From Proteromonas lacertae (lineage: Eukaryota), in NCBI GenBank assembly GCA_002245135.1, contig NGBS01000871.1, positions 62,001 to 126,000 of the forward strand: 64,000 nucleotides of DNA. Direction: 5' to 3'. Both the position numbers and the translations under genes were made by a program. The notes beneath the pieces are model-generated. The model searched no databases and was not told where the DNA came from. It was given only the letters and a program-made list of their open reading frames with translations. Positions within the stretch are counted from its first letter, which is position 1, and each line of letters begins with the position of its first letter. Below are positions 21,741 to 56,194 of the stretch, one piece after another.

Positions 21741-24700
21741 TTACTCAATTTCCGAATGAAATTCTATTATGAATTTAGATGTGAATCTAGGATTTCTACA
21801 AGCTCCATCGACTTCATTTACAGGAAAACTCATCTCACTTGACATACAACTATTACATATTACATAATATATATAAAATATATATATACTAAGGATGTAA
21901 CCATATAAACAACAAATTACTCACTTCAAATTTAAACTCAGAATCTACAGAAATATTGGGTTGTAAGTCAAAATGCCTTTCATTATTAAATTCAAATGTT
22001 TCACTTTCATATAACACTTTTCCTTCATAATTTGTAATTCTGAATGTATTTCTTAATCTTATCAAAGAAGGCATATTATATAATTTGATGTATTTAATTG
22101 TGACTTTCTTTTTAAATTGATCTCTTAATATAGGAACATAATTTTCAGGATTTAGTTTTAACAATCTATTTTTGAGAGAATTTAAATCTCTATCATTTAT
22201 TTTTGATGAAATGATAGAAGCATTTGTTCTAACAGATGCTCTTGTTGACATTCCACCAATATTTGAAGCAGGAGGAGATTGTCTAATTGATATTACACTT
22301 TGTGGATGTGATATTAAAATGGATCTTAAATCTTTTACAGGTTCATCAGATGCTGAACTAATGCTATTCTTTTTGATATTATTATTTGTCATTGCAACAT
22401 TCAAATGAGGTGATGGAAGTGGTGGTGGTGGAAATGATAATAATGATGATGAAGATACAGGAGGAGGAGGAACAGGAGAATGAGTAGGAGAATGAGCTGA
22501 GATTTGGTTAGGTAAATTCTGTTCAGATGAAAATTTGGTAGTATGTAATGGTGAAGACAAATTGTTATTACTCTCTGGAAATGAAGATAAATTATTATGT
22601 TGTAGTTGTGGTGATAGTTGTTGATTTTGTATTAATGCTGGATGAGTAGAATTATTCCATAACTGATTATTCATACTTGAATTATACGAATCACTAAAAC
22701 TACTTCTAAAGCTAGTATTATTATCTTCAAATGAAACTTTCTCAATAGAATCTATTAATTCAGGATTCTCTAATAATATATCATAAAATTCATTTAATAA
22801 TCTTTCATAGTAATGAACAAATCGAATTTGACTTGGACCACTTACTCCTTGATGTTTTGTTGTTGATTTCTTTTCATTTTCTTCAATTGTTATAGAAACA
22901 TCTGTCGAAGAATCTGATCCATAAGTTCTTTTATTCTTAAATAATTCTAATGCTTCATCAGCTGTCTTACAAACACCACTGTTTATCAAATAAGCACAAA
23001 TCATACAACCAGTTCTTCCTTTTCCTCCTTTACAATGAACAGCTATTACATTCTGTGGACTTGTTCTTAAGTAATACTCAGCATCTGTTGCAAATTTATG
23101 CATTGTATATATTTGAGGAACATTATGATCAGGAATTGGATATTTCCTAACATGACCATGAAAATAGTGAATATTATAGTCTCTTTCATTACACAGATTA
23201 TAGATTCTATAACAATCTGGATGTTTTGTATCAAAGAATCTAGCAACTTCTTTGATTGGATTTCTATACAGACTTTCAACTCTTTCTGAAGGTAATGACA
23301 TTGCTATACATCTTGGTGTTATATAAGTCAAATCTAAATCAAATCCATCTTGTTGATATCTTCTTTTATTCTGACTAACTAAATGCTTTGACTTTTTAAT
23401 TAATCTCTTTCTGCTTCTTAATCCTTTTGTAACAGCTGCAATACCACCTCTTATAATTGTAACTACTGTGAATACTATTGTTATTGTATTAGTGTCTTTG
23501 TTGAATAAATCTTCATAGATAATAACAATAATTGTGAGAATAATTGTAGCAGCAGAGAGAATAAAACATAAATAATCTGCTAATTCAACTTTTTTAAATC
23601 CATAAATATATACTCTGAGTAAAAATTCAATTGTATATAAAATCGAAGCAACAAGATTAAATAATGCACAAAGTAAAAATGCATGTGTTAAAAGATAGGA
23701 TGGAATATACGAAAGAACAGCAAGAACTGTAATTAAATATAATACCACTTGAACGGGTAAAGAATCCAACACTTTTTGGATTTTATAATGTTTTGTCTGT
23801 GGTTTTGCATTAACATTTATTTCTTGTCTCTATATATACCATTATTTAAAACAATAATAAATATTATATATATATATACTCCGATCTGTTTTCCTATATA
23901 ATCAAATATTTGATTCTGAGATATTACACCACTGATTCCACTTGAACCTTCTTCCACTAATAAGACATGATTATTCTATTAAATATATTAAGAATTATAT
24001 ATATATACCACTCTTTCCATTCTTCTCAAACACTGTAACAATGTTGCTGAAGTACTTATTGTATTTAACATATCATCCTCTTCAATATTTATAATATCAG
24101 ACAACTAATAAAAACAAATAGTAAAATAGTATATAAATATATACAATTAAATCATCAGGTAATTTCCCAGATATTAATACTTTCTTTGTTATATCTGTTC
24201 TTGTTAGTGAAGTTCTATATGTAGTATTATGTGTAACAAGTATAGAGTCACAGCTATTTATTTATTTATAAATATTATTAAATGAATAAGATTATACTGA
24301 TGATGATATAACAAATATATAGCTTCTTTTACTTTTTTATTATCTTCAAGTATTAAGAATGTCTTTTGATAAATATCACGAACGAGGCTGTTTCTATTTG
24401 AATAATATTAACTAAACATTTAATTATACAGTGGATCTTTATTATATGATTCTTTATAGTGAAAAAGAAGGAAAAATTAAAGATTTAGCTTTATGTTTTT
24501 CTATCTAAAAAATGATATATTCTCACAAAATTCAAGATCATCTGGAGATAATACTGAAGAGCACTATACATTAAAAAATTAAACAAACAAAAAGAAATGT
24601 GAATTATACCTCATCACTTACTCCATTCGAAACATAACAGTCTTGATGTATTTCTATATTAATATTATTAATTATATATACTTTGTGATGAAAAGTTCAC

Positions 24701-24930
24701 AACAGGAGGAGTAATATAACTACTTAAATATCTACAAAATAAATATAGTTGTATTACCCATTATTTTCTTCTTGTATTTCATCAAAATGTCTATTAAAAT
24801 AAACAGAGAAAAAAATACATTCTGAACTGTTCGATTTGCGGATTGTTCATTTGCTCTGACCTATATATACAAATGATGATTATATATACGAAGAGTAAGC
24901 CACACCTTTTGATTGTTCAGAAATACTCAT
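21741..24930 (-). CDS. CBS-pair / voltage-sensor / PTEN-like phosphatase / C2 protein (VSP/TPTE-like copy 1)
   Basis: LVSQNKRRYQQDGFDLDLTYIT, DHNVP, HCKGGKGRTG and S2 YTIEFLLR. CBS pair in exons at about 23880-24390. C2 tail EVDGACRNPRF. Confidence 0.88.
24459..24518 (-). other. U12-type AT-AC intron (60 nt) in VSP copy 1
   Basis: 5' ATATCATTT, branch-like TCTTTAAT, 3' AC. Removal gives EFCEN|YKESYNKDPL in frame and removes a TAG. Confidence 0.7.
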
Positions 24931-25002
24931 TTTTTTTATTCAAACCTCTCAAGCATTATTGATTATTGTTTTTTGAGTTGTAATGCCACAAACAAATTTA
25001 AA

Positions 25003-26117: not shown

Positions 26118-26389
26118 GAGTTGCTAGATTTCTTTTGTTAAGGTTGGACAAAAAAACAATCGTTTAAAGGTTGTAAATACTTTTTTTCTTCTTCATGTTT
26201 ACACTAGCTGTGTGGAATTATTGAATAAAATACTGCCAATTATAGATATAAACCTATTTGGAGTGATAAAGAAAGACGTACTGTCAATAATCTTCTTCAG
26301 TACTTTTATTTTCTCTATATATCAACAATTCAAATATAGAATAACTTAAATAATATATTAGCTAATATTAAATAATGGTTTAAATAATT

Positions 26390-29300: not shown

Positions 29301-29764
29301 AACTATATTATTATAAATTATATTATATATTTATACTATCCAGGGCTTTGGATTACCAATTTAGTAAACATCTGAAGGAACAAATCTCTATCAAATAGAA
29401 TTGTTGTATCTTTTGACAATTGCTGGATAACGTCCATGTTTCCACTACTCATATACAAATTTTGGAACTTACTCCCTTCAAAATCTGGGCAAAATTGCAA
29501 ACCACTTTCACTAATATTCGCATTTATAAAATCTAAGTCTTCAAACAGTGAAAACACTTTAAGAATATCTTCAATAGTCTTTAATTTGTTAACTTCATCC
29601 AATAATAATTTTTGTGACACTGTACTAACCATATCTGAAGAACATAATTCATCATTTCTATAAACGCATCATTAATATTACATATACATTACTTCAGATG
29701 AATATATTGTGGCTATAGATACCACTAAGCAAAGAATTACTTTTAGACAACACATGTTAGACAT
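26390..29764 (-). CDS. Signal peptide + large ectodomain + multi-TM (7TM-like) region + RGS domain protein
   Basis: N-terminal hydrophobic peptide and a Cys-rich juxtamembrane segment. TM exons at about 27320-28100. RGS motifs QEESIVFWETV, EIYNKFIKDCSECEININ, MFKPAKIEM and NFHNFIKS. Confidence 0.8.
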
Positions 29765-30702
29765 TAAAATAACAAAAAACTCATTGTGTTTCAACAATAT
29801 TTTTCTTCTCAATTTGCGATATTTTATAGCTTTATACTCATAAGCAAGTACATTTCTAACTAGATCGACTGAAATAAAGTCATGCAGTACATCATCAAAA
29901 AAAACAACCCTGTAATCTAAGTCAATTCGTTGAAATAACCACTATTTACAATAGCATTACACGTTTATATACCCATAAACCAATTAGAATGTTATATTAT
30001 AAAGATCTATCAACAACTGATAATTCTGGACATCTAATGGCAAATTAAAGAAATATATCATCTACTGCTAATAGTAGTGTGTGGAACGTCTTACCAATCA
30101 AAAATGAAAATATAGCCGTTGCAAATAGAATGTATTTTTACATAGCTGATATGCTTTCATCAATTTTACCATATGAAACGCAAGTATTTTTATTTAATTA
30201 GTTCATAGATAAAAAAAGAGTAGAAAAGAGAGCTAATAAAGTAGATTTTATTATACAACGCAATAATAATACGAAGATGATGAAAGTGGTGAATGTAGTT
30301 AGAGTTAAAGTAAAAAAAAGTATTTAAATTTCAAAAGATTAACTCACTGTTGTTAAATTGTTGTTCTTCTTATGTCTGCCCATCTAAAACATTTTTGTGG
30401 GATAAAATCAGTGAATATAAAATGATAGATAGAAAATAATACTTAATTAATCTAGAAGAGAAAATTCAAAGTAAATCCTTATCCCTGAGTGATATGAGTG
30501 ATGCCATATGCAATATATGTAATGCACTTATGATATTGATTGAATATAATGTAATAATAAGTTTATATATAGAGTAGTAACATAATATATGAAGAAGATA
30601 AATTGAAATAATGAAAAACAGAAAAATAATTGTTATATTATTATTTTTATTTTTACAACATAAATAACAAACTTAACAATAGAAAAACTAGTTAAATTAT
30701 TA

Positions 30703-33651
30703 TTATTCTTTCTTATTTTCATTCTTTTTATCATCTGAATAAGACATTGGCTTTACACTATCTCTTTTATTTTCATCCAAATCTTCATCAATTTTATCTT
30801 CACCTAATTCAATCATAGTTGCTTGAATAGTATTATTCAAATTATCATTATTAATCATTGTTTCATCCACACTTGATTTCCTTCTACCAATTGTACCAGT
30901 TACAGATGATGTTTTCCTAATATGTTTTGCTGTTAAATTGGTAGTATTACTAAGTTGATAGGATGATTGATAGAGATTTCTATTACTTGAATTGATACTT
31001 CTTATTCCATTTTGAAGTAAATGGACTTCACTATTATTCTCTGTTTTACTCATATTATCACTACTACTCAGTCTGTTTTCATTGAATATTTCAAATAAGA
31101 ATGCAATTTCAAAATTATCAGGATATTTAGAGTTTTTACAAGCTCCATCTATTTCTTCTTTTCTTAATATAACTTGTTTTTCAACGAAACTATTAAATAA
31201 ATAAATAAATAAATATAAATACAATGAATGTAACCAACAATAAAAATATTCATAACCTGATGGTGTTTTTGCAGTAAATCGAAAATCATTCTTTAAAAGT
31301 ATATGAAAATCAATTGTAATTACAGGTTCATGGATCTTTTTAATTAGTTTACTTGCAGTTTCATTTCCCTAATACGTAATAATAACAACAATATATACAT
31401 TTTCATCTTCAATAGTAAACAATAAAGATGTTGAAATTTTAGGAAGCTATAAAAAATAATAAAATAATATAATATACATTATTAATAATTATCTGTTTTG
31501 GAGCAACCATTCTTTTATTCAAATCCAAACTATTAGAACTTGGCATTTGTCTATATAACAACGCTTGTTCATAATAATGAACATATCTGATCTGACTTGG
31601 ACCAGTAACACCTTGATCTTTGCCAGCACTTCCAGTTCTTTTATCTCTAAATAATCTCAAAGCTTCATCTGCATTACAACAAGTACCACTTCTTATCAAA
31701 TAAGCACAAATCATACAACCAGTTCTACCTTTTCCACCTTTACAATGAACTGCAATTACATTCTGAGGTAATTGATTTAAGTAGTTTTCAGCATCTACTG
31801 CAAATTGGTGCATTCTTTCAAGTGTTGGAACATTATGATCTTTGATTGGAAATGATGTATTTACTTTTTTATGGAAATATTCTTCATCATATTTCTTCTC
31901 AGCACAGAGATTATAGACTATGTAATTGCCATTATGATGTTCGTCTAGATATTTAGCTACATCTTTAATATTGTTTCTATATATTGATTCTAAGTTTTCT
32001 GAAGGTAATGACATTGCTATACATCTTGTAGTGATATAGGTTAAGTCTAAATCAAATTCACCTGTTACCATTCTTCGCTTGTTTTGACTAACTAATTTTT
32101 TACTATATTTTACCATCTTTTTAACTGAATAGCAAGCTCTAATTATTCCTCTTATAAATCGAAATATTAAACCAATTTGATAGATTGTTCCAAAAGTTGG
32201 ATCATCAGGAAAGGCGACAGTTAATAATATAGCCAGTGTTGCAGTATATAATAACAATATAACATCAACAATATTCCATGTAAGTTTAAAAAATTTCTTC
32301 TTTTGAACTTTCATTCTTAACACTAATTCTAATATATATATTACGGCAATTACTAAACCAATAATTGGAGGAACACTATCAATAAACACCAAAGTAAAAT
32401 CTGCAATACATAACATACAAATAAATAAATGAACATCTAATGTATATATATATATTAATAATTATATATATATACAAATTGAACTAGAAATTGCTTGTAG
32501 TTTCTGATCTAATTTTGATATTACTCTTCCATCAGCTTTTTTTCTCTATATATATATATATAATATGAATAACAACTAATATATAAATATACGTTTAAGT
32601 AGTTAGAAACATAATGAAATATATTATCTAAAGTGATAAAACCACATATTCCACACTCATCAACTAATACAAACTGATGATCTTCTTCATACGCTTCAAT
32701 TACGTGTAAACACTCTAATAATGGCGTACTGGACAATACAATAAAATGAGCATTAGCACAATCAGCTATATCACCAATCTAATTAACATATATATATATA
32801 TATAATGTAATATAAATATACTGTTTTTTGATTCCATAATTCTCCTTTTGTAATGATTTGATTGGTTATATCATTTGCACATATTGGTTTTGGTTCACTA
32901 AATGCATCTCTTTCATCATTCAAATGAGTGGATGATGATATTGTGATGTTTACTGGTCTACTAGAAGGAGTAGAAGGTGATTGAATTGCAGAAGAACTTT
33001 GAGATGATGGTGGAGATGATTCTGAATTTGGTAATACAAATAACATATCACAACTATATATATATAAATGAGTTGAATTTAAAAATTTATACGTTTCAAA
33101 ATGTTTAATTGCTTCTGTTATTGATAAATCTCTGTCTACAACATGAAAATTTTGTGAAAATGCATTTCTAACTGGATGAAGTAATACATCATCATTCCCA
33201 TATTGTTTTATATATTATATTCAGTTAAAGAAATATTCACATAATGATTTATTGATCAAAAAGATATATTGTCCAAGAATTTTTGAAAATTTTCATCTCT
33301 TTCATATTCTATAACATCATCTCCTTCAATTGTATGTGCTTGTTTGTTTGAAACAGATCCTATTGTTTAAATTAATTTATATAGATTAGATACTTCTTTT
33401 TGTCCTAGTAGTTCTTATAGAGCTATAAAGTATAACAAAATGTGACATACCCTCTTTTACTGGAATTACAAGAATTACTAATATCTGCAATTCGTCTCAG
33501 TTGTGTGTTTGAAGGAGGTCTAATGACTAAAATTATAGGATATACATATTTGAATCAGAATGTGCAAATTTCTCCGCTCCTTTATTTGTATCAGGTAATT
33601 CTATTATAATTTGATCAGCTAGTAGTATAAAAACAATTATATACTTGACAT
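30703..33651 (-). CDS. CBS-VSD-PTEN-C2 protein (VSP/TPTE-like copy 2; best-preserved voltage sensor)
   Basis: S2 YILELVLR, S3 WNIVD, S4 LIFRFIRGIIR, LVSQNKRR and HCKGGKGR. CBS exons at about 32570-33190. Start approximate. Confidence 0.88.
33215..33267 (-). other. U12-type AT-AA intron (53 nt) in VSP copy 2
   Basis: 5' ATATCTTTT, branch TTTCTTTAAC. Removal gives KFLDN|YIKQYGNDDVL. Confidence 0.68.
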
Positions 33652-33821
33652 TTATAAATCCTTGAAAAAATTATTACGAAAAAATTACCCACAATTTTGT
33701 TATAACCACATTATATGCTTGACAAACATTGATTTCATTTCATTTTTTGATGTATGCATTCATTTAAATTACAAACAAATACTAATAAAAGTGTATATTC
33801 TTAATAAAGACATAGTATTTC

Positions 33822-38173: not shown

Positions 38174-38564
38174 ACTTCTATAATATTGTATATGGACAAT
38201 GTATATAATAACAAGTAATTAATACTGAAAGGATTTATGAGAATGTGCAAATGTGAAAAACAAGATTTCAAGCCTTTTAAAAAAGCTTGATTTTTCTGTT
38301 ATACAAATGTAAAGTCAAATTAACATACGTTAAAATACAATAATCATTTTCTACCTATCATTATGACAGTCTGAATTGATTTAATGAATAATATTAATAT
38401 AATACTCTATTGGTTTAAATAATAGTATAATATATTTACCTTTCACATTCAATTTCATCATACAATCTAAAATACAACCATAATATATGCTTTTCTATTA
38501 ATTTTCATGAGTTAACTATTTTAAAAATATATTCGTTTTGTGTTTTTGTTGAAATATCATTAGA

Positions 38565-40948
38565 ATGAATGAACCAACAGACATAAAAAACATCACAATT
38601 GAGATTGAGGACGATTCTAATGCTGGTACTAATATAAATGTAATTGATAATCAAGCAGTAAGAACATTTTGTAATTATAAAATCTTTAGGCAAAAAGTAC
38701 AACTGATTTAACGTCTAAATCAGACAATAAGTATATTCATTTTTCATTTTCACTTATATAGATTTAGTGACAGTATAATACTTATAAAAGATATTTTTGC
38801 TATAAAAATAGATTGCACTACAAGCTTAGCATCACCTAGTGTATTATATTATATTTTATCGTTTAGGGTGCTAGTTATTCATATTCTTGTTATGAAACTT
38901 CCAGTATAGCGACAATATCCTCATAATATATTTTTTTGTTATGTTATTTTTAATTCATATTATTCTTAAACACCATCGATTTCTTTAAGTGATCCATTGA
39001 ATATTCCAGTAATTGATATTTGCAGTAGTCACATATTGCAGTTTTCAAATAAAACTAAAGTGGAAGATGTGCTTATAAAACTACGCAAATCGCAGTATTG
39101 TTTATTGTATTACATATATAGTTGTAATTCATTTATTGTAACAAATGAATATAATGAATTTATAAAGTTTTATACTCAAAAAGATATTTATTTTAAAGTT
39201 ATATATTATGGGAAAATGAATGAATCATTTACTGTATATTATACAATTGATAATATTTATATTAGTTGAAAGATCTAATAGAAATGGATGAAAAAAGTAG
39301 AATTGAAACTCAATGTGTGTCTTATTCAAATTCATTAATTGATTGTTTGAAAATTATGAAAGAAAATGTATATACTACTCATATGTTCAATTATATAGAA
39401 TGTTGAATCAATAGCTGTATCTGATGATCAGAAAAGCATATCAGGAATAATATCTCTGGATGATATTTCAGATCTGTTGATTCAACAAATAAAAATGAGA
39501 AGAAATCCACCCAGAAAATTATCACCTGTTGAACAGAAAATATCTAATCTATTTGATTCAATATGTATATACATTCTATGTGTATAATAATTATCTTTAG
39601 TTTTTCAAATTTTTTATATATTCATAATGATAATTAGTATTCTTTTCAGTATTTTTAGTGCAACTTTACATTTATTGGTATTTCAAGTATTAAGTCCGAT
39701 GCTGATATTTATACTGCTTTTTGTTGCTAGTTTAAGAGATAAATTGAAAGGAATGAAGCATATACTAAAAATAGATATACTTGAAACAGTTTGTTTGTCA
39801 TTTGCATTTATATTTGGATTGTTATATGTAATTGTTTATGTTATTGAAGGTAATAGTGAATACTTATATTTTTTTACTGCTGGGTTTTTAGCCATTCATG
39901 TGTTTTTGATTTTTCCATTTAGATTTAATGAAACAAGAAAGAAAATGAAACATTCATCAAAGAAAGCTGTATCAAGAAATAAAACAAGATATCAACAAGA
40001 TGGATTTGACTTAGACTTGACATATATCACAAATAAATGTATAGCAATGTCATTACCTGCTGAGAAGATTGAAAGTCTGTATAGAAATCCAATAGGTGAA
40101 GTTGTAAGATTCTTTGATACAAAACATCCTGGTTGTTATAGAATCTATAACTTATGTAAAGAAAGGGATTATAATATTGATTATTTTCATGGAAATGTAG
40201 TTAGATTCCCAATTCCAGATCATAATGTTCCAACTTTGAGAATAATGTATGAATTCTCAAAAGATGCAAAATCATTTCTTTCATCAAATCCACAGAATGT
40301 AATAGCAGTTCATTGTAAAGGTGGTAAAGGCAGAACTGGCTGTATGATTTGTGCTTATTTAGTTAACAGTGGTGTATGTAATAATACAGATGAAGCTTTA
40401 GATCGATTTGCCTCAAAAAGAACATATGGTGAAACAAAGAATCAAGGAGTTACATGTCCAAGTCAAAAGAGATTTGTTCATTATTTTGAACAATTTTTAG
40501 AAGATTTATTTATATATTACAATAATCCAATTGATATAGTTACTATAAAAGATGAAGAAATGGATGAATTATTTAATAAAAGATATAACAAAGAAATAAC
40601 AATAGAAAGAATAACAATTAATAATGTATAATATAATCTATTTTATATATTGATTAGCTGCCTAAAATGAAAGATATAAGATTTAGAATCGTAGATTATA
40701 ATGGTAAACAATTGTATATAAGTAGTATAATGAATATTAAAGCATTAAATAAAAGCCAAATTACAATAGAACCAAATTTGAAAGTAAGAAATGAGTTTCG
40801 ATTTGAATGTAAAGGTAAATTCTATATGTGGCAACATAGTTACTTTGTATGTGAAAGGAAAATATATAACAAACAAGAAATTGATGGGATTTGTAATAAT
40901 ATAAACTATCCAGACAATACTTGCATAGAATTTATATTTAAAACATAA
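38565..40948 (+). CDS. CBS-VSD-PTEN-C2 protein (copy 3)
   Basis: CBS exons at about 38990-39480, four TM segments, VSRNKTRYQQDGFDLDLTY, HCKGGKGR, and the C2 exon 40658-40948. Confidence 0.87.
38915..38969 (+). other. U12-type AT-AA intron (55 nt) in VSP copy 3
   Basis: 5' ATATCCTC, branch-like TTTTTAAT. Removal gives SIAT|TPSISLSDPL. Confidence 0.62.
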
Positions 40949-41481: not shown

Positions 41482-43826
41482 TTAAATAGGGTCAATAACC
41501 TCATATTTAGTGAATTTCAATTCTATATTAAAATAATTTGAGTATTTATCGTTTCTATGAGCTAAATCAATTTGAGATTTGAAATAAATCTCTTTTTCAT
41601 TCACAAAATAGCTATGTTGCCATATGAAAAACTCTTTATTCACATATATCTTAAACTCATTCTATAATAATTATAATATAAAAAGAGAACAAAAATACTT
41701 GTAAAGGTAAATCCAAGTTAATTTTTATTGCAACTCCTTTCTCTGGCAAAATAGGTTGGGAATGGTACAAATTAATTCCATCATATGAATCAATATTGAC
41801 TATTATTGGATAATAATTTTTAAACTATAAATGAATATTTACATTTACTATATATATTAATACATTTCTTATTGTTATTGATGATAATATCACTGATAGA
41901 TTATATCTTTGATGAAATACTGATTCTATTTCTTCATTTGATAATGTACAAAAATTTTGATTATCAAAATATATAGATGATAAATCGTTTAATAATCTTT
42001 CATAGTAATGAACAAACCGAATTTGACTTGGACCACTTACTCCTTGATCTTTGATTTCACCATATGTTCTTTTATCAGCAAATAAATTAAGAGCTTCTTC
42101 AGCTGTTTCACATACTCCACTTAATAACAAATAAGCACAAATCATACAACCAGTTCTACCTTTTCCTCCTTTACAATGTACTGCTATTACATTTTGTGGA
42201 TTGGAAGAGAGAAATAACCTTGCATCTGTTGCAAATTTGTGCATTTCTTCAATTGTTGGTACATTATGATCAGGAATTGGATATTTTACTACATTTCCAT
42301 GAAAGTAATTTACATTATAATCCCTTTCATTACATAAGTTATATATTCTATAACGATTGGGATGTTTTGTATCAAAAAATCTAGCTACTTCTTTAATTGG
42401 ATTTCTATATATCTTTTCAATTCCTGTAGCTGGTAATGACATTGCTATACAGCTATTTGTGATATAAGTCAAGTCTAAATCAAATCCATCCTGTTTAAAT
42501 CTTTTTTTATTTCTTGATACTGTTAATTTAGATATTGCAGAAAACTGCTTAATGGCATTTCTAGTTCTGTACAAACCTACACAACATCCTTCAATTGGGA
42601 ATGTTACACTTGCTATTATAGCACACATACCAAGAATAAAATTCCAAGTCTTATTATCATGGCTAATTGGTAAACAAAATGCAAAACAACTAGGAATTAG
42701 AAAACATAGCAAACAAATTTCACAACAATCACATCTCTGTATATTTTGATATCCTATTACTCTTATTCTTAAGAATGTAATAATTGCCAGAATAATTGAG
42801 AATATTAAAGTGATAAACCATTTCGATATGAATTTATAAAAATAATATGTCAAGATAATTGTAGCTGCTATAAATATTATATAGAATATTTGATAATCTA
42901 TTTCATTAAATAATATAATATAATATTATTTATATACAAATGTTATGAACTATTCTTGAAGCATAATAATCACATTTTGAAATAACCATTGGTGGTCTAT
43001 CCTTTTCTTCAATACGAACAGATATATAACGAAATATATCATCTAATGAAACAACTCCAGTTATACCAGTTCTACCTTCAGCAACTAATAAACAATCACA
43101 ATTCTATATATACTTATATTATTTATATTTATATACATTTTCATTCATTATTCTGATACATTCTCTTAATGTTGTTGTTGATAGTATTGCTACTAATGGA
43201 GGAGTATTCTCTGGATCTATTAAATCAGACAATAACTTATTCTGAGACATTATATCGTATGTCAAAAATGATGAAGCAATGTCTTTTCTATTTAAAAACT
43301 TCAAATAAGTTTCATTGTGTTTCAAAATAAGAGAATAATAGCTATAAATATTACATTTAAAGATGATAATACTTATAATGTTCCAATCTCAATATTGCTT
43401 CTTTCACTGATGTTGTATCTTCCATTATTAAAAAATATTTATTGCATAGCTCGCCTACTGGAATTCTTCTAAAACAAAATAAGAAGATTCTGTTGGATAC
43501 AAAAAATCATCTTCTGACAAAGGGAAAATGTAGAACTAAATTAAGTATATTACATTTAATTTCATAAAAAGATATAAATTGACCTGTTTCTAGATCATCT
43601 ACTGGCGTTGGAACAGATGTTGCCTAATATTATGTTAAATGCTAAAATATACTGATGAAATAGTTACAACAGAAGATCTACAACGTTCTATTTATTTGGA
43701 TCCTATAGTCATACCAAAGTTTGAATCTGTCTGAATTAAAACATTTTGTAGAGGTATGTCTGCTCCTACAGGGCTATTTGGTACTGATGTATCTTTTGAA
43801 TGTATATATTTAGTTATAAAAGACAT
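41482..43826 (-). CDS. CBS-VSD-PTEN-C2 protein (copy 4)
   Basis: CBS exons at about 43020-43470, TM region, VSRNKKRFKQDGFDLDLTY, HCKGGKGR and C2 tail SQIDLAHRNDKY. Confidence 0.87.
43530..43575 (-). other. U12-type AT-AC intron (46 nt) in VSP copy 4
   Basis: 5' ATATCTTTT, branch TACTTAAT, 3' AC. Removal gives ETGQF|IFPLSEDDF. Confidence 0.72.
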
Positions 43827-43979: not shown

Positions 43980-46420
43980 TCAAACAGCAATACTTTTAGG
44001 TTTGTTAGAGTAAATAAATTCAACACAAAATGCCTCAGAATAATTTTTCTTTGAATTTATTCCATCAACATCATGCTTAAAATATATTTCTTTGTCTTTC
44101 ACAAAATAACTATGTTGCCATATATACAGTTCTTTATCAACTTTAAATATAAACTCATCCTATATATATATATATATTATATATATTTCACACTAATATA
44201 TACTTTTACAACAACTTTTGGATGAATTATAATGGTAGATAATCCATCATTTACTCCACTTGAATTTATATACAATTTCATCCCACCATAAGATCTTATC
44301 TCCACTTTCACTCTGCCTTTTCGTGGATACTATTTTTAAGTATAATTATATATATATATATACTCCTCTTATGATTATTGTTTCTATCTCAACTTCTTTT
44401 GTGAAATATTCCATCATAATATAGTTAAATCTTCCTTCATCCATATTCAACAGTTTATTTGAATTACTTTCTATTTTGTATAATTCATTTAATAATCTTT
44501 CATAGTAATGAACAAACCGAATTTGACTTGGACCACTTACTCCTTGATCTTTGATTTCACCATATGTTCTTTTATCAGCAAATAAATTAAGAGCTTCTTC
44601 AGCTGTTTCACATACTCCACTTAATAACAAATAAGCACAAATCATACAACCAGTTCTACCTTTTCCTCCTTTACAATGAACTGCTATTACATTATAAAGA
44701 TCAAATGACAGAAACAAACAAGAGTTTATGGCAAATAAATACATAGATCGAAGTTTGGGTACATTATGATCAGGAATTGGATATTTTACTACATTTCCAT
44801 GAAAGTAATTTACATTATAATCCCTTTCATTACATAAGTTATAGATTCTATAACGGTTGGGATGTTTTGTATCAAAAAATCTAGCTACTTCTTTAATTGG
44901 ATTTCTATATATCTTTTCAATTCCTGTAGCTGGTAATGACATTGCTATACATTTATTTGTGATATATGTCAAGTCTAAATCAAATCCATCTTTTTGATAT
45001 CTTGTTTTATTTCTTGATACAGCTTTCTTTGATGAATGTTTCATTTTCTTTCTCATGTCATTTATTCTATATATTGTAATACAACATGATTGAATGATAA
45101 TCATTATTCCATCAACAACAAACACCAAATACAAAAATATACTATCAATTTCACCATCATTTCCTATTTGTACGAACAATAATACTAAAGAAGAAATAAG
45201 TGAAATAGATGCAACACTCAATTGACATTTCTATTAGTATAAAAAAGACATAAGATCTTATACATCAACAAAAAACATATGTTTATATCCATATACTTTT
45301 ATTCTCATTAATACTTCTACTAAATAAAAACAAGATATAACAGGAACAAGGTAGCTATGATAATAAATAAAATAAAATACAAATAAACATCTTGGTTTGA
45401 ATAAAACAAACACATACAAATATAAGCTAGTAATATAACAAAATAGATGAATTGACAATCTAATAATAATAATAATAAATTACACAATTATTTATTTATA
45501 CAAAATGATTCAATAATCTTTTGCATTATTCTATCACTTTCTGATTTTATTTCTTTAGGATATAGTTTTTCTTCTAATTTATCTCCAATATAATTAAATA
45601 TTGAATTCATCGTTATTACTCCACTGATTCCAGTTATTCCTTCACTTACAATCATTTCATCACTTTCTTTTTCATACATTATATTTAAACATTCCATTAT
45701 TGACATTCGATTACTTATTACATTTAATTTTTCATCTTCTTTTATTAAGTCTTTTAAATGTTTGTTTTCCGGAAGTAAACCTTTTCGTAGTATTTCATTA
45801 CATATCTCTTTTTCATTTATAAATTTTATGTAGTTACCTTCATGAGTTACGATTAAATTATTATTTTTATTATTATGTAATAAGATTATTGATTCTTCTA
45901 TTGATGTAGTATCAGGTATTAATATGAAGTTCTTATTACATATCTCACCTATTTGATCATTTCTAAATACATTTTATAATATATTATATATATAACATTA
46001 TATAATACAAAGGATCATCAGGATAAGTACTTCTATATTACATAGCAATTAAGAATTCTATTATATATGAGATAATTATCTTAAATAGGATATTAAATCA
46101 CAAATAGGATTTGAAGATTCAACAGGAGTTATTCTCTATAATAATCATTAAGGAATAAATACTGACAGGTATGAAGTATTAGATTTGTCACTTGCAGCTA
46201 TATTTTAAATATTAGAATAACAAGGATAATACAAGGTGGAAATAATGTAGATTTGTTTGAAATATTTATACTTATATGTTTACTATTAAGTAAAACTCTA
46301 ATAATACTGAAGATCTATTGATTCAGACATTTCTATCCTTTTTTCACTTTTAAATTCAATTCCAATTGGTCTTAGTCCATTTGCTTTTAACTTATTCCCA
46401 CTATTCCCATTTCCAAGCAT
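43980..46420 (-). CDS. CBS-VSD-PTEN-C2 protein (copy 5; mosaic)
   Basis: CBS exon at about 45490-45965, S2 YLVEVLMR, HCKGGKGR and C2 tail VDGINSKKNYS. Confidence 0.87.
46038..46093 (-). other. U12-type AT-AA intron (56 nt) in VSP copy 5
   Basis: 5' ATATCCT, branch TTCTTAAT. Removal gives ICDL|YRSTYPDDP. Confidence 0.7.
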
Positions 46421-47698: not shown

Positions 47699-50246
47699 AT
47701 GTCAAAAACTGAAAGTAATCATGAGTCAAATAAGCAAGTAGTAGTTAATATTGAAGATATAGAATTGACTAAATCTGACACCAGTATAATTGATAGAAAT
47801 GACGATGATTCTAATAAACAGTATTTATATAGGTATATTAAATATAGGACAAATATATTAACGAAGCAAATGAGTCAAAAACAGTATAAATATATTAAAA
47901 TTTAGTTCATTATAGTATATCTACAACGGTTGTTAATATAAGTATATTAATTTGTTTGATACATTTAAACAGATCGGGTGCAAGCAAGATTTCCATTTTT
48001 TAATTCTGTATATTATAACTTGTGAGATTATAGGAAATCACAGAAGTTTCTCCTTCAGCATCATGCATTTGTGATTTAATATCCTATTTAAAATAATTAT
48101 CTCATATATAATAGAATTCTTAATTGCTATGTAATATAGAAGTACTTATCCTGATGATCCTTTGTATTATATAATGTTATATATATATAATATATTATAA
48201 AATGTATTTAGAAATGATCAAATAGGTGAGATATGTAATAAGAACTTCATATTAATACCTGATACTACATCAATAGAAGAATCAATAATCTTATTACATA
48301 ATAATAAAAATAATAATTTAATCGTAACTCATGAAGGTAACTACATAAAATTTATAAATGAAAAAGAGATATGTAATGAAATACTACGAAAAGGTTTACT
48401 TCCGGAAAACAAACATTTAAAAGACTTAATAAAAGAAGATGAAAAATTAAATGTAATAAGTAATCGAATGTCAATAATGGAATGTTTAAATATAATGTAT
48501 GAAAAAGAAAGTGATGAAATGATTGTAAGTGAAGGAATAACTGGAATCAGTGGAGTAATAACGATGAATTCAATATTTAATTATATTGGAGATAAATTAG
48601 AAGAAGGAAGAGAAATCAGAAATATCAATGTAAAGAAATCATGTAAAAGTTGTTTATTGAATATAGTTGATTCAATATGTATTTATTTTATTGCTATATA
48701 CTTTATTTAGATTTCCAGTTAATCTTAGTTATACTACTTATAGTATATTTTGTAGTAACTATTCTTACTCATGATACATTCACATCAATATTTGTATCAG
48801 TATTTCTATTCATAGAAATTATCTTTAGAATAATAGTAAGTGGAATCTTTAATTTACTTTATGTTGATGTATATTATTATTATTATTATTATTTTATTAA
48901 TTCAATAATAGTATGTTCAATTGATTATATCAATATCATCTCTTGTTGCTGCTGCTGTTTCTTTGAAGTATAATACAGAAATATCATTTGAAGTATATCA
49001 ATTGTTGAATTCAGTGTCAGGTTCTGCACTTGTTTTTCAGCTAATCACAATCACAGGTTATAGAATGATTTTAATAAAAAGAAGGATGATGAAAAAGAGT
49101 AGAAAGTTAGTGTCTAGGAACAAAGCAAGATATCAGAAGGATGGGTTTGATTTGGATTTGACTTATATAACTCCAAGATGTATTGCAATGTCATTACCAG
49201 CTGAAAATATAGAAAGTATTTACAGAAATCCAATTAAAGAAGTATCAAGATTCTTTGATAAAAAACATCCAAAATGTTATAGAATCTATAATTTATGTAA
49301 TGAAAGAGATTACAATATTAATTATTTTCATGGAAATGTCAAGAAATTTCCAATCAAAGATCATAATGTTCCAAGAGTAGAAAGTATGTATCAGTTTGCT
49401 ATGGATGCTGTTTATTATTTAAACCAAAAACCTTACAATGTAATAGCTGTTCATTGTAAAGGAGGAAAAGGAAGAACTGGTTGTATGGTTTGTGCTTATC
49501 TAATAAACAGTGGTGTTTGTAAAACAGCTGATGAAGCTTTAAGATTATTTGCAAATAAAAGATCATTTGGTGAATCAAAGAATCAAGGAGTAAGTGGTCC
49601 AAGTCAAATTCGCTTTGTTCATTATTTTGAAGAATTTTTAAAGGAGTTTAAGGAAATAGTTGATCATTTGTCATTAACTGAAGATACTGTAAAAGAGTAT
49701 GTAAACTATTTTTCAGAATTACGGAAAAGAATTAAAGATAAAGACTCAGGAGATGATGATTTGTTAATAAATAATCAATCTTGTATGGATGATTGTAAAG
49801 TGAAATTTAGTTTCATCACTGAACATTTTATAAGAAAAATCAGAATAAACAAAATTGTAATAAGAAATGTATATATATATATATGTTTGTATATATTAAT
49901 TAGATGCCTGAAATAATGAATGGGAATCAAGTGTTTATTATAACAGATTATGATGATAATATTTTATGGAAAAATAATGAAGTTGAAATAGATGTAGAAA
50001 TTAGCAGAATAGTTGAATTTGAACCATCTTTAAACATAGAAGGAGAATTTAAATTTGAGGTAAAACCATTCCTTTTTGTATGGCTTCAATCATATTATGT
50101 GAAAGATGAAGAGGTTTTAAGTCTGAAATTGATAGATATAGCATGTAGAAATCCAAAGTATTATACTGTTGATATTCTGTAATAGATTTCCACCCAACTT
50201 CGAGATTGTAATTTATTCATCAGATATTACTGAAACAAATAGCTGA
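47699..50246 (+). CDS. CBS-VSD-PTEN-C2 protein (copy 6)
   Basis: CBS exon at about 48210-48600, S2 FIEIIFR, LVSRNKARYQKDGFDLDLTY, HCKGGKGR, and C2 exons to 50246. Confidence 0.87.
48079..48134 (+). other. U12-type AT-AA intron (56 nt) in VSP copy 6
   Basis: 5' ATATCCT, branch TTCTTAAT. Removal gives ICDL|YRSTYPDDP. Confidence 0.7.
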
Positions 50247-51608: not shown

Positions 51609-51642
<34 letters not shown>

Positions 51643-53444
51643 GTCATTATCATCGGAATAAGTTCTTTTATTCTTAAATAGCTCTAATGCTTCATCACCA
51701 CTATTACTAACACCACTTGCCAATAAATAAGCACATATCATACAACCAGTTCTACCTTTTCCACCTTTACAATGAACAGCAATTACATTATATGGATTTT
51801 TATTTAAATAATTCAATGAGTCTGTTGCAAATTGATGCATTGCCCAAACGGTTGGAACATTATGATCAGGAATTGGAAATTTCTTGACATGTCCATGAAA
51901 ATAGCTTTTATCATAACTTCTTTCATTACATAAATTATAAATTCTATAACAATCTGGATGTTTTGTATCAAAGAATCTAGCAACTTCTTTAATTGGATTT
52001 CTATAAATACTTTCAACTCTTATGGATGGTAATGACATTGCTATACATCTTTGTGTTATATAAGTCAAATCTAAATCAAATCCATCTTTCTTATATCTTC
52101 TTTTATTTTGACTAACCAAATGTTTAGAATGATTGATTACTTTCCTTTTATATTCAATTGCTTTACACAAACCAAAGCAAAACCCTCTTACTCCCATAAA
52201 TACTTCATTTGCAAAATAACTTCCTTTTCTTAAACCTTCAAACTCTTTAGGACAAGCAACAGCTAATATATTAGTCGCAATTCCAAAAAATGAGAATATT
52301 CCACCAATTATATCAACTGGAGATTGATGTTTAAATCCAGTTGTTTTTATTCGAAATGCAATTTCAAATACTAACATACATGATAAAACTAAACTAATAA
52401 CAACTGCAATATCAAAGTTTAATATTCCAAATGATAATACAAATGTAACAATATTCATAATTATTAATATTAACATAAAACATTGATATGCTATAAAAAT
52501 TAAAATGATAATTTCATTATTATACACAATGAATCAAAACATCTTTTTATTTTATATTCATAGTGTGACATTTTCGCACCATTTGCATCTAATTTTTTAG
52601 CTAAATGTTCTGCAACATAATTGAATATCTTATGTTCTGTTATTATACCACTTAATCCACTTGTTCCTTCTTCTACTAACATTATATGACAACCCTAATG
52701 AAGATATATATTTATAAATTATACCGTTTTTTTCATCCTCCTTAAACATTCTAATAGTGTAGCTGAAGAACTGATTGTATTATAATTATCTGATTCATCT
52801 AATTTTATTATTTGTTCAAGTGTAGGGTTTTCATGAAGTATTCCATTTGATAGTATATTATTGATTATATCTGCTCTTGTTATTGCTTTTACAAATGTTT
52901 TCTGATGAGTTACTAATAAAGAATCACACCTAAATATTTAAATTGATATTTCTATAATTAAAAAGAATACTTCTTCTGATATAATAAACATATTGCATCT
53001 TGAAGTAAAACATAATCTTCAACAATTACAAATGTCTTTTTATACACATCCCTTACAAGGGAATTTAATGGATCTCCTCTAAATTTCTTATTCTTTTCAC
53101 ATATATTTTTGTCTTCTGGAGATAATATTCCAGTATCATCAGATAATACTGACATACACGAAAAATCATGTTTGTAACTCGCTATTTAATATTAATATAC
53201 AAATATATACATGATGCTGATGATCCATCTTTATTTGGTGTTGTATCTATTGGTGATCGACTATAAATCGATAATTAGATATAATACTCTGGAAAATGGA
53301 TGAATAAATTAGGTTCAGTACTATAGAAATAACATGGTAAATGATATACGTTCTTTCAGAAGGTAGATTTTTGTTAAATTCTTGTTCTTTGAAAGCAATT
53401 CTAGGATAGTTTTAGATAGAATATAATACGACTGATGGCGACAT
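50631..53444 (-). CDS. CBS-VSD-PTEN-C2 protein (copy 7; Asn/Thr-rich inserts)
   Basis: CBS exons at about 52600-53070, S2 VFEIAFR, LVSQNKRRYKKDGFDLDLTY, HCKGGKGR and C2 EVDGACRN. Start approximate. Confidence 0.87.
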
Positions 53445-53810
53445 TTTTTATTGGATTGGACTATTCATTTAATGATGTGTCGAAGAAAAAGTATTTTGAT
53501 TTTTTTTTGTTAACCCAATGCAAAATAGATATTGAGTATTTATTGAAATTAGCGTTTGAGATATGAAACACTATATATAGTTATATATCTAAAGTAATAT
53601 ACTTTGCCATAAGATAGAAATTCAAAAAAATGAAAGAGATATCACATTATTTACTACAAAAAGATATTAAATGTTAAATATAAGCATATGTATTGTATCG
53701 TAATTTATATTACTATAAGAAATATATCTCAGAAGAATAGTGTAGAGACAAAAAATAAACAAAAATATATTTTTCAAAATACTTTTTAAGTGGTTGTTTT
53801 TTTGTGTTTA

Positions 53811-56194
53811 ATGTCTGATAATCCAGTAGAAAACGATGCAAAAGGCATCATTATTGAGATTAAAGAGGATATAAATCAAAATGTGACTAATACCTCAAAC
53901 AATCAAGATGATTTAGTATGAAAAACTAGTTATTTAAACTATAGAAAGCTAAGAATAGTCAATCAGCTACTACATCATATGTGACGTATAATAATTATTT
54001 ATAACTCTTATAGAAGTAGTAGTAGTAATTCAGTTGCATATAGTATTCTATTTAATTTGTAATAATTAGCCCCAAGGAAACAAATAGTAAATGATCATGT
54101 ATAAATTATATTTACTCATTAGGGAATGGCGATTACCTCAAGCAATATGATATTTAGTAATTTAACAATACCATCACTTTCTCCAGATGATCCTTTAAAC
54201 ACTCCAGTTATCGATATATGCAATAGATATCTTTTGTTACTTCCAGATACTACTAAAATTGAAGATGTATTAATAAAACTTCAAAAATCAAAGTATATTA
54301 TTATTATTATTATTAAAATGAATTATCTCTATACAGATCACAATCGTTTGTTGTAACAAATGAATATAATGAATATGTTAGATTTTATACTCAAAAGGAA
54401 ATATATTATAAAGTTGTAATTTTCGGGAAAATGAATGAAGTATTTACTGTATAGCTATATTGTTGTTGATAATATTTATATTAGTTGAAAGATTTAATGG
54501 AAATGGATGAAAAAAGCAATAATGAAACTCAATGTGTATCTAATACAAACACATTAATAGAATGTTTATCAATAATGAGACAAAATGTATATATTATTAT
54601 TATGATTGTTATAATTATTAAAATATAGAATGTTGAATCAATTGCTGTATCTGAAGGTGTTACTGGAATAACAGGAATAATAACATTAGATGATATAACA
54701 GATTTCTTAAGTCAAGAAATAAAGTTGAGAAGAAATCCACCAAGAAAATTAACACCATTTGAAAAGAAAATAGACAATGTGTTTGCATCAATATGTATGT
54801 AAGATAATATATGATTTTTTAAATAGTTTTTCAAGTTGGATATATAGCTTTAATGTTGGTTAGCGTTGCTGTATTTGCTTTATCATTTACTCATATTGTT
54901 GAATGGTTAATGTATAATTATAATAATATCCATATTTATGTGAATGTAGGTATATCTCTCCAGTTCTAATATTATTTATGTTTATTATTTCGCTTTTAAG
55001 AATAAAATTAAAAGGAATAGGATATTTGGATAAAAGAGATATATTAGAAGCATTTTTCTTATTTGTAGCTGTTATATTTTCAGTCTTATATCTTCTTCCA
55101 ATAGATAGTAAAGCAGCAAATAGGGTTTTTTATTTCTCATGTGCATCTGCATTGTTTTTTCATATATTCTTTGTAATTCCGTGTAGAGTAAGAGAAAATA
55201 AAAGAAAAATGAAAAGTTCAACAAAAAGAGCTGTTTCTACCAATAAAGCAAGATATAAAAAAGATGGATTTGATTTGGATTTGACTTATATAACACCAAG
55301 ATGTATTGCAATGTCATTACCAGCTGAAAATATAGAAATGTTGTATAGAAATCCAATAGGTGAAGTTGTAAGATTCTTTGATACAAAACATCCTGGTTTT
55401 TATAGAATATATAATTTATGTAAAGAAAGGAATTACAATGCAAAATATTTTCATGGAAATGTAGTTAGATTCCCAATTCCAGATCATAATGTTCCAACTT
55501 TGAGAATAATGTATGAATTCTCAAAAGATGTTAGAAAATTTCTATCATCAAATCCACAGAATGTAATAGCAGTTCATTGTAAAGGTGGAAAAGGCAGAAC
55601 TGGCTGTATGATCTGTGCTTATTTAGTTAACAGTGGTGTATGTAATAATACAGATGAAGCTTTAGATCGATTTGCCTCAAAAAGAACATATGGTGAAACA
55701 AAGAATCAAGGAGTTACATGTCCAAGTCAAAAGAGATTTGTTCATTATTTTGAACAATTTTTAGAAGATTTATTTATATATTACAATAATCCAATTGATA
55801 TAGTTACTATAAAAGATGAAGAAATGGAAGAATTATTTAATAAAAGATATAACAAAGAAATAACAATAGAAAGAATAACAATTAATAATGTATAATATAA
55901 TCTATTTTATATATTGATTAGCTGCCTAAAATGAAAGATATAAGATTTAGAATCGTAGATTATAATGGTAAACAATTGTATATAAGTAGTATAATGAATA
56001 TTAAAGCATTAAATAAAAGCCAAATTACAATAGAACCAAATTTGAAAGTAAGAAATGAGTTTCGATTTGAATGTAAAGGTAAATTCTATATGTGGCAACA
56101 TAGTTACTTTGTATGTGAAAGGAAAATATATAACAAACAAGAAATTGATGGGATTTGTAATAATCATAAACTATCCCAGACAACTTTTGTATAG
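53811..56194 (+). CDS. CBS-VSD-PTEN-C2 protein (copy 8; last residues frameshifted relative to copy 3)
   Basis: CBS exons at about 54190-54710, TM region, VSTNKARYKKDGFDLDLTY, HCKGGKGR and a C2 exon. Confidence 0.85.

What the first reader, a model, noticed from the sequence alone, without database searches (positions are those of the whole stretch)
21741..56194. Eight-copy family of CBS-domain voltage-sensing phosphatases (CBS-CBS-VSD-PTEN-C2)
Seen: all eight loci carry a 4-TM segment, the VSP linker (VSxNKxRY..DGFDLDLTY), the HCKGGKGR active site and a C2 tail. Upstream, hidden in short exons, each has a CBS pair, for example copy 6 LNDQIGEICNKNFILIPDTTSIEESIILL...LIVTHEG...SIMECLNIMYEKESDEMIVSEGITGISGVITMNSIFNYI. 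Known: animal VSP/TPTE genes are usually single or low copy and have no CBS module, and CBS pairs bind adenine nucleotides in AMPK-gamma, CLC channels and IMPDH. Inference: a phosphoinositide phosphatase that could integrate energy charge (ATP/AMP) with membrane potential, expanded in a probable gut protist. I do not know of a description of this architecture.
Basis: partly seen in the sequence, partly recalled or inferred. Interest (0 to 1): 0.92.

Follow-up and report, generated by a model that had tools for sequence, protein, structure and literature searches.

The report
CBS-fused membrane lipid phosphatase family
Eight neighbouring genes in an AT-rich protist encode membrane-bound PTEN-type lipid phosphatases that carry an extra CBS pair, a module that binds ATP/AMP in other proteins; seven have lost the charges that sense voltage, so they are likely switched by a cytoplasmic ligand instead, whereas cryptophyte algae keep the same fusion with an intact sensor.

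Summary
Observation confirmed. Eight genes encode CBS-CBS / four-helix membrane module / VSP linker / PTEN-type phosphatase / C2. Spliced models read through; 45 of 46 introns start GTAT and positions are shared between paralogs. In six copies the end of CBS2 and the pre-S1 helix lie on one exon. The interpretation needs two corrections. (1) Only copy 2 keeps a canonical voltage sensor; seven copies have one S4 arginine (animals usually four charges) and lack the S1 aspartate. (2) The architecture is not unique: nine database clusters, including the cryptophytes Hanusia and Hemiselmis, have the same order with an intact S4. Six copies keep a T/S-x-x-D/N ribose motif, and the CBS pair sits where Ci-VSP's N-terminal coupling segment lies, so nucleotide control is plausible but untested. 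No RNA data were available. By-products: a likely U12-type intron just upstream of the CBS pair in six copies, and recurrent gene conversion of the CBS exon between copies 5 and 6. Three literature searches found no description. The scan had not found this before; it had noted a charge-poor VSP without CBS in Cryptosporidium. Verdict: new variant of the VSP/TPTE family.

The parts
21698..24930 (-). Copy 1: leader, CBS pair (24437-23880, four exons), charge-poor 4-TM module, phosphatase (active site 23011-23037) with a long low-complexity insert, C2
30703..33651 (-). Copy 2: the only copy with a canonical voltage sensor (S1 Asp, S2 Tyr/Glu/Arg, S3 Asp, three S4 Arg); CBS pair 33199-32593 with a Ser/Pro insert in CBS1; active site 31721-31747; C2 and tail
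38565..40948 (+). Copy 3: CBS pair from 38991, uncharged 4-TM module (folded here, pLDDT 89), active site 40311-40337, C2
41482..43826 (-). Copy 4: CBS pair from 43467, uncharged 4-TM module, active site 42152-42178, C2
43980..46420 (-). Copy 5: CBS pair on one exon (45503-45961), identical to that of copy 6; active site 44652-44678; C2
47699..50246 (+). Copy 6: CBS pair plus pre-S1 helix on one exon (48213-48677); active site 49452-49478; C2
50631..53444 (-). Copy 7: CBS pair from 53077, charge-poor 4-TM module, active site 51748-51774, Asn-rich inserts, C2; start codon not resolved (53155 or further upstream)
53811..56194 (+). Copy 8: CBS pair from 54186, uncharged 4-TM module, active site 55575-55601, C2; two 1-nt insertions relative to copy 3 near 56165-56175 shift the last C2 strand (sequencing error or real lesion)
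45569..45994 (.). 426-nt tract identical in reverse complement to 48180-48605: the CBS exon shared by copies 5 and 6 (gene conversion)
   Evidence: same breakpoint in related sequences P0336/P0337
48180..48605 (.). Second arm of the same tract (copy 6 CBS exon)
24459..24518 (-). Likely U12-type AT-AC intron, phase 0, just upstream of the copy 1 CBS pair
43530..43575 (-). Likely U12-type AT-AC intron, phase 0, just upstream of the copy 4 CBS pair
33206..33267 (-). Likely U12-type intron in copy 2 (AT donor, acceptor ambiguous, AT-AA or AT-AT)
38915..38969 (+). Likely U12-type intron in copy 3 (AT-AA)
46035..46093 (-). Likely U12-type intron in copy 5 (AT-AA or AT-AT)
48079..48137 (+). Likely U12-type intron in copy 6 (AT-AA or AT-AT)

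Best explanation
The eight genes encode VSP/TPTE-type phosphatases with a CBS pair fused in front of the membrane module; seven have lost the voltage-sensing charges, so the four helices likely serve as anchor and lever, and the CBS pair would switch the enzyme by binding an adenine nucleotide. Shown: the fusion, the intact catalytic residues (DHN loop, HCKGGKGRT), the basic linker, the loss of S4 charges, and the same domain order with an intact S4 in cryptophytes. Inferred: the ancestor was a CBS-bearing VSP able to read both voltage and a cytoplasmic ligand; after tandem expansion copy 2 kept the sensor and the others dropped it. The CBS pair ends about 20-25 residues before S1, where Ci-VSP has the N-terminal segment that contacts the linker and gating loop, so a ligand-driven movement of the CBS pair could be passed to the active site by that route. 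The P-loop glycine points to 5-phosphatase activity on PI(3,4,5)P3; activity on PI(4,5)P2 is uncertain because the gating-loop ET pair is absent.
For: Fusion: open spliced models for 8 of 8; 46 introns of 25-50 nt, 45 GTAT and 45 TAG, 12.7% GC; shared position and phase, e.g. start of S1 in 7 of 8, before C2 in 7 of 8; CBS2 end and pre-S1 helix on one exon in copies 3-8; related ORFs at 81-86% identity stop at the same donor; single-ORF homologs, one from a Hemiselmis MMETSP entry. Sensor loss: in the S4 window, copy 2 has 3 Arg and the other seven 1 Arg (two with a Lys as well), against 4 or more charges in 101 of 112 animal VSPs; S1 Asp only in copy 2; animal-VSD HMM scores copy 2 at E 2e-7, copies 1, 5, 7 weakly, copies 3, 4, 8 not significantly, copy 6 not at all. 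Constraint: membrane module 11-33% identical between copies, CBS 19-66% (without the converted pair), phosphatase 62-93%; for copies 3/8 pN is 0.17 in CBS and 0.44 in the membrane module. Ligand site: G-h-h-T/S-x-x-D/N (PMC6429129) complete in CBS2 of copies 2, 3, 4, 8; T-x-x-D in CBS1 of copies 1, 3, 7; best PDB match MJ1225. Coupling route: PMC11289409 passages. Specificity: PMC6182344 Table 1.
Against: No RNA or biochemical data. Copies 5 and 6 lack a complete ribose motif in both CBS domains, yet their CBS exon is conserved and homogenised. In the nine outside homologs the CBS2 Asp is kept in 6, but none of those six has the T/S. The two acidic residues that do the coupling in Ci-VSP (D91/D92) have no evident counterpart. 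pS values are near saturation and the membrane-module alignment is poor, so the pN/pS contrast is rough. Copies 1 and 7 keep two basic S4 residues and the S2 Glu/Arg, so weak voltage dependence is not excluded. A single origin of window and cryptophyte fusions is not rejected (p-AU 0.52) but not shown.
Confidence: 0.45

Rival explanations
1. The CBS pair is a nucleotide-independent module: a dimerisation disc, a scaffold, an ion or ionic-strength sensor, or a pseudosubstrate lid on the phosphatase as the CNNM CBS loop is for PRL.
For: Copies 5/6 lack the motif but are conserved at 81-86% in relatives. The T/S is missing in the outside homologs that keep the Asp. CNNM CBS2 inserts an Asp into the PRL active site (PMC6429129). 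Copy 2 and the cryptophyte proteins have inserts in the CBS1 hairpin.
Against: The full motif persists in 4 of 8 copies that are only 21-66% identical in CBS. Seven window copies have a short hairpin and no extended CBS2 loop.
Confidence: 0.28
2. The fast-evolving four-helix modules have become sensors of their own (lipids, external small molecules, membrane tension) or sorting signals, and the paralogs are a diversified receptor-like set; the CBS pair is secondary.
For: The membrane module is the least conserved domain, with pN about equal to pS, yet it keeps four helices, an invariant S2 Arg and the basic linker. A membrane RGS-domain gene lies inside the array.
Against: Relaxed selection on an anchor explains the divergence as well; no shared pocket motif was seen; no test of positive selection was possible.
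Confidence: 0.14
3. All eight copies integrate voltage and energy charge.
For: Copy 2 has a canonical sensor and a complete CBS2 motif. All nine outside homologs have arginines at every third S4 position.
Against: Seven copies have one S4 Arg and no S1 Asp. Ci-VSP uses four arginines as sensing charges (PMC3813379 abstract).
Confidence: 0.1
4. The CBS exons are separate genes or decayed fragments, or the array is an assembly artefact.
For: No RNA support. One 426-nt tract is 100% identical between copies 5 and 6. Copy 8 has two 1-nt insertions.
Against: Shared intron positions, junction on one exon, fused homologs, and the same copy 5/6 homogenisation with the same breakpoint in a related organism. 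Copies are otherwise 62-93% identical in the phosphatase.
Confidence: 0.03

Closest known systems
Voltage-sensing phosphatases (Ci-VSP, zebrafish VSP 9C49, TPTE/TPTE2)
   Same: Pre-S1 helix, four-helix module, basic S-x-N-K-x-R linker, HCKGGKGRT with the VSP-type glycine, C2; best PDB match of copy 2 is 9C49 at E 2.9e-58.
   Different: N-terminal CBS pair; S4 charges lost in 7 of 8; gating loop S/T-G/C instead of ET and no D400 equivalent; eight tandem copies. None of the 120 best hits carried a precomputed CBS domain (two proved to have a divergent one).
Cryptophyte-type CBS-VSP proteins (P0005 Hanusia phi, P0126 Hemiselmis andersenii, P0004, P0121/P0294, P0122, P0124, P0132, P0136, P0139; unstudied database entries)
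   Same: Same order CBS-CBS-VSD-phosphatase(-C2); CBS profiles match (HHalign 96.9%, E 1.4e-10); several share the CIAMSLP motif.
   Different: S4 intact in all nine; longer CBS-to-S1 linker; only 4 of 9 keep HCKGGKGRT; three carry a second PTEN domain. Common origin not resolved.
PTEN
   Same: Phosphatase-C2 core and a small polar residue at the TI-loop position.
   Different: Has Ala at 126 (here Gly), no membrane module, no CBS pair.
CBS-regulated membrane proteins (CNNM/CorC, MgtE; CLC and OpuA recalled) and the CNNM-PRL complex
   Same: A Bateman module joined by a helix to a membrane domain; G-h-h-T/S-x-x-D/N motif in 4 of 8 copies.
   Different: Those are transporters or channels; in CNNM-PRL the CBS pair and the phosphatase are separate proteins, and the extended CBS2 loop is not present here.

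Membership tests
VSP/TPTE | PTEN-type phosphatase with HCKGGKGRT and the DHN acid loop | tested here: met
   8 of 8
VSP/TPTE | C-terminal PTEN-type C2 domain | tested here: met
   Aligns in 8 of 8; Pfam hits all under the gathering score; last strand frameshifted in copy 8
VSP/TPTE | Four-helix S1-S4 module joined to the phosphatase by the basic linker | tested here: met
   Hydropathy; linker with 8-11 K/R; copy 2 matches Ci-VSP VSD 4G7V at E 7e-6
VSP/TPTE | Degenerate modules keep the specific VSD fold | tested here: inconclusive
   Copy 3 model pLDDT 89; Foldseek ranks Ci-VSP VSD first (TM 0.61) but at E 0.11; VIA ranks generic bundles higher (Z 14.3 against 11.1, rmsd 3.2, 105 aligned)
VSP (voltage-gated, strict sense) | Three or four S4 arginines at every third position plus S1-S3 counter-charges | tested here: not met
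   Met in copy 2 only; not met in the other 7 of 8
VSP (voltage-gated, strict sense) | Gating-loop ET pair (Ci-VSP E411/T412) | tested here: not met
   QGV-S/T-G/C-PSQ in 8 of 8
VSP (voltage-gated, strict sense) | Depolarisation-activated phosphoinositide turnover | not testable with these tools
   Needs voltage clamp
CBS pair (Bateman module) | Two tandem CBS motifs | tested here: met
   Pfam, PDB, Atlas and cross-lineage HMM
CBS pair (Bateman module) | Ribose-phosphate motif G-h-h-T/S-x-x-D/N | tested here: inconclusive
   Complete in CBS2 of 4 of 8; T-x-x-D without the Gly in CBS1 of 3 of 8; neither in copies 5/6
CBS pair (Bateman module) | Adenine-nucleotide binding with a regulatory effect | not testable with these tools
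   Needs binding and activity assays
PTEN proper | Soluble, Ala at P-loop position 126, TI pair | tested here: not met
   Gly, membrane module, S/T-G/C
One CBS-VSP clade (window plus cryptophyte type) | Monophyly on the phosphatase tree | tested here: inconclusive
   Window clade 97/90, cryptophyte-type clade 93/95, relation open; forced clade not rejected, p-AU 0.518
U12-type introns | ATATCC/TT donor, branch-like TTAAC/T, AT-AC or related ends | tested here: met
   Donor (one mismatch allowed at the variable position) and branch in copies 1-6; AT-AC in 2 of 6, AT-AA/AT-AT in 4 of 6; splicing itself not shown

The most novel reading that the evidence does not exclude
An overlooked eukaryotic family of adenylate-gated phosphoinositide phosphatases. 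In cryptophytes and in copy 2 one protein reads both membrane voltage and ATP/AMP; in this organism the family expanded and swapped voltage gating for metabolic gating, using the old sensor as a lever. It would link energy charge directly to membrane lipid signalling, without AMPK.
Probability: 0.3. Interest if true: 0.87.

Novelty: new variant of a known kind. Interest (0 to 1): 0.7.

Why it matters
How the VSP sensor switches on its enzyme is still debated, and the membrane-proximal N-terminus was only recently implicated (PMC11289409). Here a whole ligand-binding module sits at that spot, in natural versions with the sensor intact (copy 2, cryptophytes) and with it neutralised (seven copies). 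That is a ready comparative series for testing whether the N-terminal route alone can gate the enzyme. If the CBS pair binds adenylates, it would be a direct link from energy state to phosphoinositides, and a template for ATP/AMP-dependent lipid-phosphatase tools. It also shows that VSP-like enzymes in protists are more varied than the animal model suggests.

Tried and rejected
No whole genome is held, so copies elsewhere in the genome were not counted. Single-sequence AlphaFold2 of the copy 6 CBS exon gave pLDDT 36 and was not used. Complex prediction of copy 6 CBS with its phosphatase: no answer, score 0.00, alignments not used. Direct BLAST of the copy 6 CBS against P0005 and P0004 was not significant (E 0.48 and 0.69); the link rests on profiles. 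Alignments A2, A9 and A11 misplaced short exon pieces and were discarded; in A7 and A8 the window CBS rows were misplaced or unchecked and they were not used. The fixed-offset S4 count undercounts the cryptophyte proteins (linker four residues shorter); their S4 was read. A CBS-like island in P0215, P0224 and L011 was not significant (HHalign 2.3% at best) and is not counted. Atlas search of P0005 50-700 gave only VSP/TPTE clusters under 0.9. A GT-AG-only parse of the leaders failed or was forced in copies 1-6; first suspected as assembly indels, then explained by an AT-donor intron. Seven rows were dropped from the tree input by a motif filter (P0139, P0172, P0231, P0262, P0140, P0189, P0198). 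The Blastocystis TGTTTGTT element occurs 13 times against 6.3 expected, but no match lies at a stop-less gene end among the eight models.
Full report
Observation. A six-frame scan finds eight HCKGGKGRT sites in a 26.4% GC window, each preceded by the VSP linker and a hydrophobic module and followed by a divergent C2. Copies 3-8 are adjacent in mixed orientation; unrelated genes separate copies 1, 2 and 3. The CBS pair is real. The copy 6 exon passes Pfam CBS at 34.7 bits, 7 of 7 and 10 of 10 PDB hits are CBS proteins, led by MJ1225, and the ESM Atlas returns CBS clusters at 0.93. In the intron-split copies Pfam alone is weak or silent, but an HMM built from non-window CBS pairs finds all eight spliced models.

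Is the CBS pair part of the same gene? No RNA run was listed, so the case is genomic. Spliced models read through from CBS to C2 in 8 of 8 copies. Their 46 introns are 25-50 nt, 12.7% GC, with GTAT in 45 and TAG in 45. Positions and phases recur among paralogs: inside CBS1 in five copies, inside CBS2 in five, at the start of S1 in seven, before C2 in seven. In copies 3-8 the end of CBS2 runs on one exon into the segment that aligns with the VSP pre-S1 helix. ORFs from related organisms (8 hits; three at 81-86% identity to copy 6) stop at the same donor. Unspliced database proteins hold the whole order in one chain (below). I put the fusion at about 95%.

Leaders and a minor intron. A GT-AG-only parse reached the CBS start cleanly only in copies 7 and 8. 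Copies 1-6 each have an ATATC[ACT]T donor 68-108 nt upstream, a branch-like TTAA[CT] and a phase-0 junction; copies 7 and 8 have none. Such a donor falls in a given 60 nt with probability 0.055; copies 5 and 6 are not independent and the motif was chosen after looking. Ends are AT-AC in copies 1 and 4, AT-AA or AT-AT in the rest (that such ends occur is recalled). With this intron, all six leaders parse to an ATG through ordinary short introns and give 65-90 residues. Blastocystis is reported to have U12 introns (PMC5608401, passages). Splicing is inferred, not shown.

The sensor. Copy 2 matches the Ci-VSP sensor domain (E 7e-6) and keeps the S1 Asp, S2 Tyr/Glu/Arg, S3 Asp and three S4 arginines (the Ci-VSP numbers other than D129 and R223-R232 are recalled). 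The other seven have one Arg in the same window, two of them a Lys as well, whereas 101 of 112 animal VSPs have four or five charges; all seven lack the S1 Asp. Ci-VSP uses four arginines as sensing charges (PMC3813379, abstract). The module is the least conserved domain (11-33% identity against 62-93% for the phosphatase) with pN about equal to pS in four pairs, while CBS is more constrained (pS is near saturation). Copy 3's module, folded from window paralogs only, gives four helices at pLDDT 89 with S4 running into the linker. Foldseek ranks the Ci-VSP sensor first, but at E 0.11, and VIA ranks generic bundles higher: compatible with the VSD fold, not specific. So 'voltage-sensing' holds for one copy.

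The enzyme. All eight keep the DHN loop, HCKGGKGRT and a linker with 8-11 basic residues, so they are probably active. The P-loop Gly is VSP-like, the gating loop lacks the ET pair. In PMC6182344 (passages and Table 1) PTEN with that Gly alone is a 5-phosphatase for PIP3 but not PI(4,5)P2, while VSP without ET keeps both activities, weakened. 5-phosphatase activity is therefore likely and the PIP2 activity open.

Elsewhere. The first homolog search listed 120 of 1352 hits, none with a precomputed CBS domain, but two (P0005 Hanusia phi, P0004) had a CBS-like N-terminus on inspection. A profile search of 1.84 billion representatives (best 150 of 10,609 listed) and brought the total to nine clusters with CBS, VSD and phosphatase in order. 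Pfam CBS passes the cut-off in P0136 and P0139, is below it in P0005, P0124, P0132, P0126 and P0294, and is absent in P0004 and P0122. Their CBS profile matches the window's (HHalign 96.9%). Named members are cryptophytes: Hanusia phi and Hemiselmis andersenii, the latter an MMETSP entry (a transcriptome collection, recalled); a Guillardia fragment and a Baffinella protein belong to the cluster or clade. One of 80 metagenome loci (L049) has the CBS pair upstream of the phosphatase. All nine have an intact S4; four keep HCKGGKGRT. On a 63-row phosphatase tree the eight copies form a clade (97/90) with the Logan protein P0226, whose S4 is also uncharged (99/96); the cryptophyte type forms another (93/95); their relation is open and a single clade is not rejected (p-AU 0.518).

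How it most likely works. In Ci-VSP the membrane-proximal N-terminus (residues 80-105) is predicted to contact the linker and gating loop and is needed for full activation (PMC11289409, passages). Here CBS2 ends some 20-25 residues before S1, in that position. CNNM shows how a Bateman module passes a nucleotide-driven twist to a membrane domain, and defines the G-h-h-T/S-x-x-D/N motif (PMC6429129, passages; PMC11855589, passages). The motif is complete in CBS2 of copies 2, 3, 4 and 8; copies 1, 3 and 7 have T-x-x-D in CBS1; copies 5 and 6 have neither. I therefore commit to ligand gating through the CBS pair, most likely by an adenine nucleotide, with the old sensor as anchor and lever (0.45). 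Rivals are a nucleotide-independent CBS role (0.28), diversified membrane sensors (0.14), dual gating in all copies (0.10) and artefact (0.03). Binding, coupling and substrate are all inferred.

Evolution of the array. Copies 5 and 6 share 426 identical nt covering the CBS exon; copies 3/8 and 4/5 share tracts of 335, 215 and 191 nt in the phosphatase and C2. In a related organism two ORFs are identical for 96 residues and diverge at the same point into copy 5-type and copy 6-type tails, which argues for recurrent gene conversion and against misassembly.

Organism. Not established. Low GC, short variable introns, normal stop codons, likely U12 introns and a weak SHIPPO-repeat hit (E 0.007, under the cut-off) are compatible with a flagellated relative of Blastocystis. 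In PMC12129017 (passages; rows of Table S5) Proteromonas has 10 tensin-C2 and 16 SHIPPO proteins, Blastocystis strains 2-5 and 0. This is inference.

Novelty. No paper in the library holds both 'voltage-sensing phosphatase' and 'CBS domain'; the listings (12 of 12; 3 of 4) show none on this fusion. The library lacks most subscription papers, and bioRxiv supplements were closed. One database record is labelled only 'CBS domain-containing protein'. Other papers seen: PMC4187576, PMC9464190 and PMC3728624 as passages; PMC10686229 as a search listing. Verdict: a real, apparently undescribed variant of the VSP/TPTE family, present in at least two lineages, with the voltage input lost in most copies here. 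Interest 0.7.

Noticed in passing
window 24459-24518, 33206-33267, 38915-38969, 43530-43575, 46035-46093, 48079-48137: Likely U12-type intron at one position in copies 1-6, absent from 7 and 8; four copies would need AT-AA or AT-AT ends. Human PTEN also has a regulatory minor intron (PMC3728624); positions were not compared.
   Followed up: partly
L068:1730-4963 (also L069, P0234): A VSP-like ORF with sensor remnant, phosphatase, PTEN-C2, a second C2 and a cNMP-binding domain (E 1e-9): another ligand-binding VSP variant.
   Followed up: no
P0004, P0005, P0121/P0294, P0305: Cryptophyte-type CBS-VSPs with a second, PTEN-like (HCKAGKGRT) domain at the C-terminus; in P0005 and P0121 the first active site looks impaired.
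   Followed up: partly
L011:2258-5731, P0215, P0224: A further protist VSP group with intact S4 and a conserved N-terminal island resembling a CBS end; not significant.
   Followed up: partly
L008:496-3222: Another protist VSP-like ORF with a charge-poor S4 and no CBS.
   Followed up: no
window 26390-30500 (-): Multi-exon membrane protein gene with a large extracellular part, hydrophobic segments and an RGS domain (E 6e-16), inside the array between copies 1 and 2; looks like a receptor-RGS fusion.
   Followed up: no
window 33822-38218 (-): Large gene with a nucleotidyltransferase-like N-terminal region (by eye) and ankyrin repeats between copies 2 and 3.
   Followed up: no
window 15105-15716 (+): Intronless maltose O-acetyltransferase-like gene (Mac, Hexapep), of a kind often bacterial in origin.
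   Followed up: no
window 4084-4716 (-): PG-P-x-x-Y repeats with a weak SHIPPO hit, a hint that the organism has flagella.
   Followed up: partly
window 57931-62239 (-): ABCB/P-glycoprotein-like transporter in two overlapping reading frames near 59366-59427 (intron or indel not examined).
   Followed up: no
window 56165-56175: Two 1-nt insertions in copy 8 relative to copy 3 shift the last C2 strand.
   Followed up: yes
P0129, P0164, P0180, P0191, P0214, P0222: PTEN-like domains fused to myosin TH1, PH, RGS or kinase domains among the profile hits.
   Followed up: no
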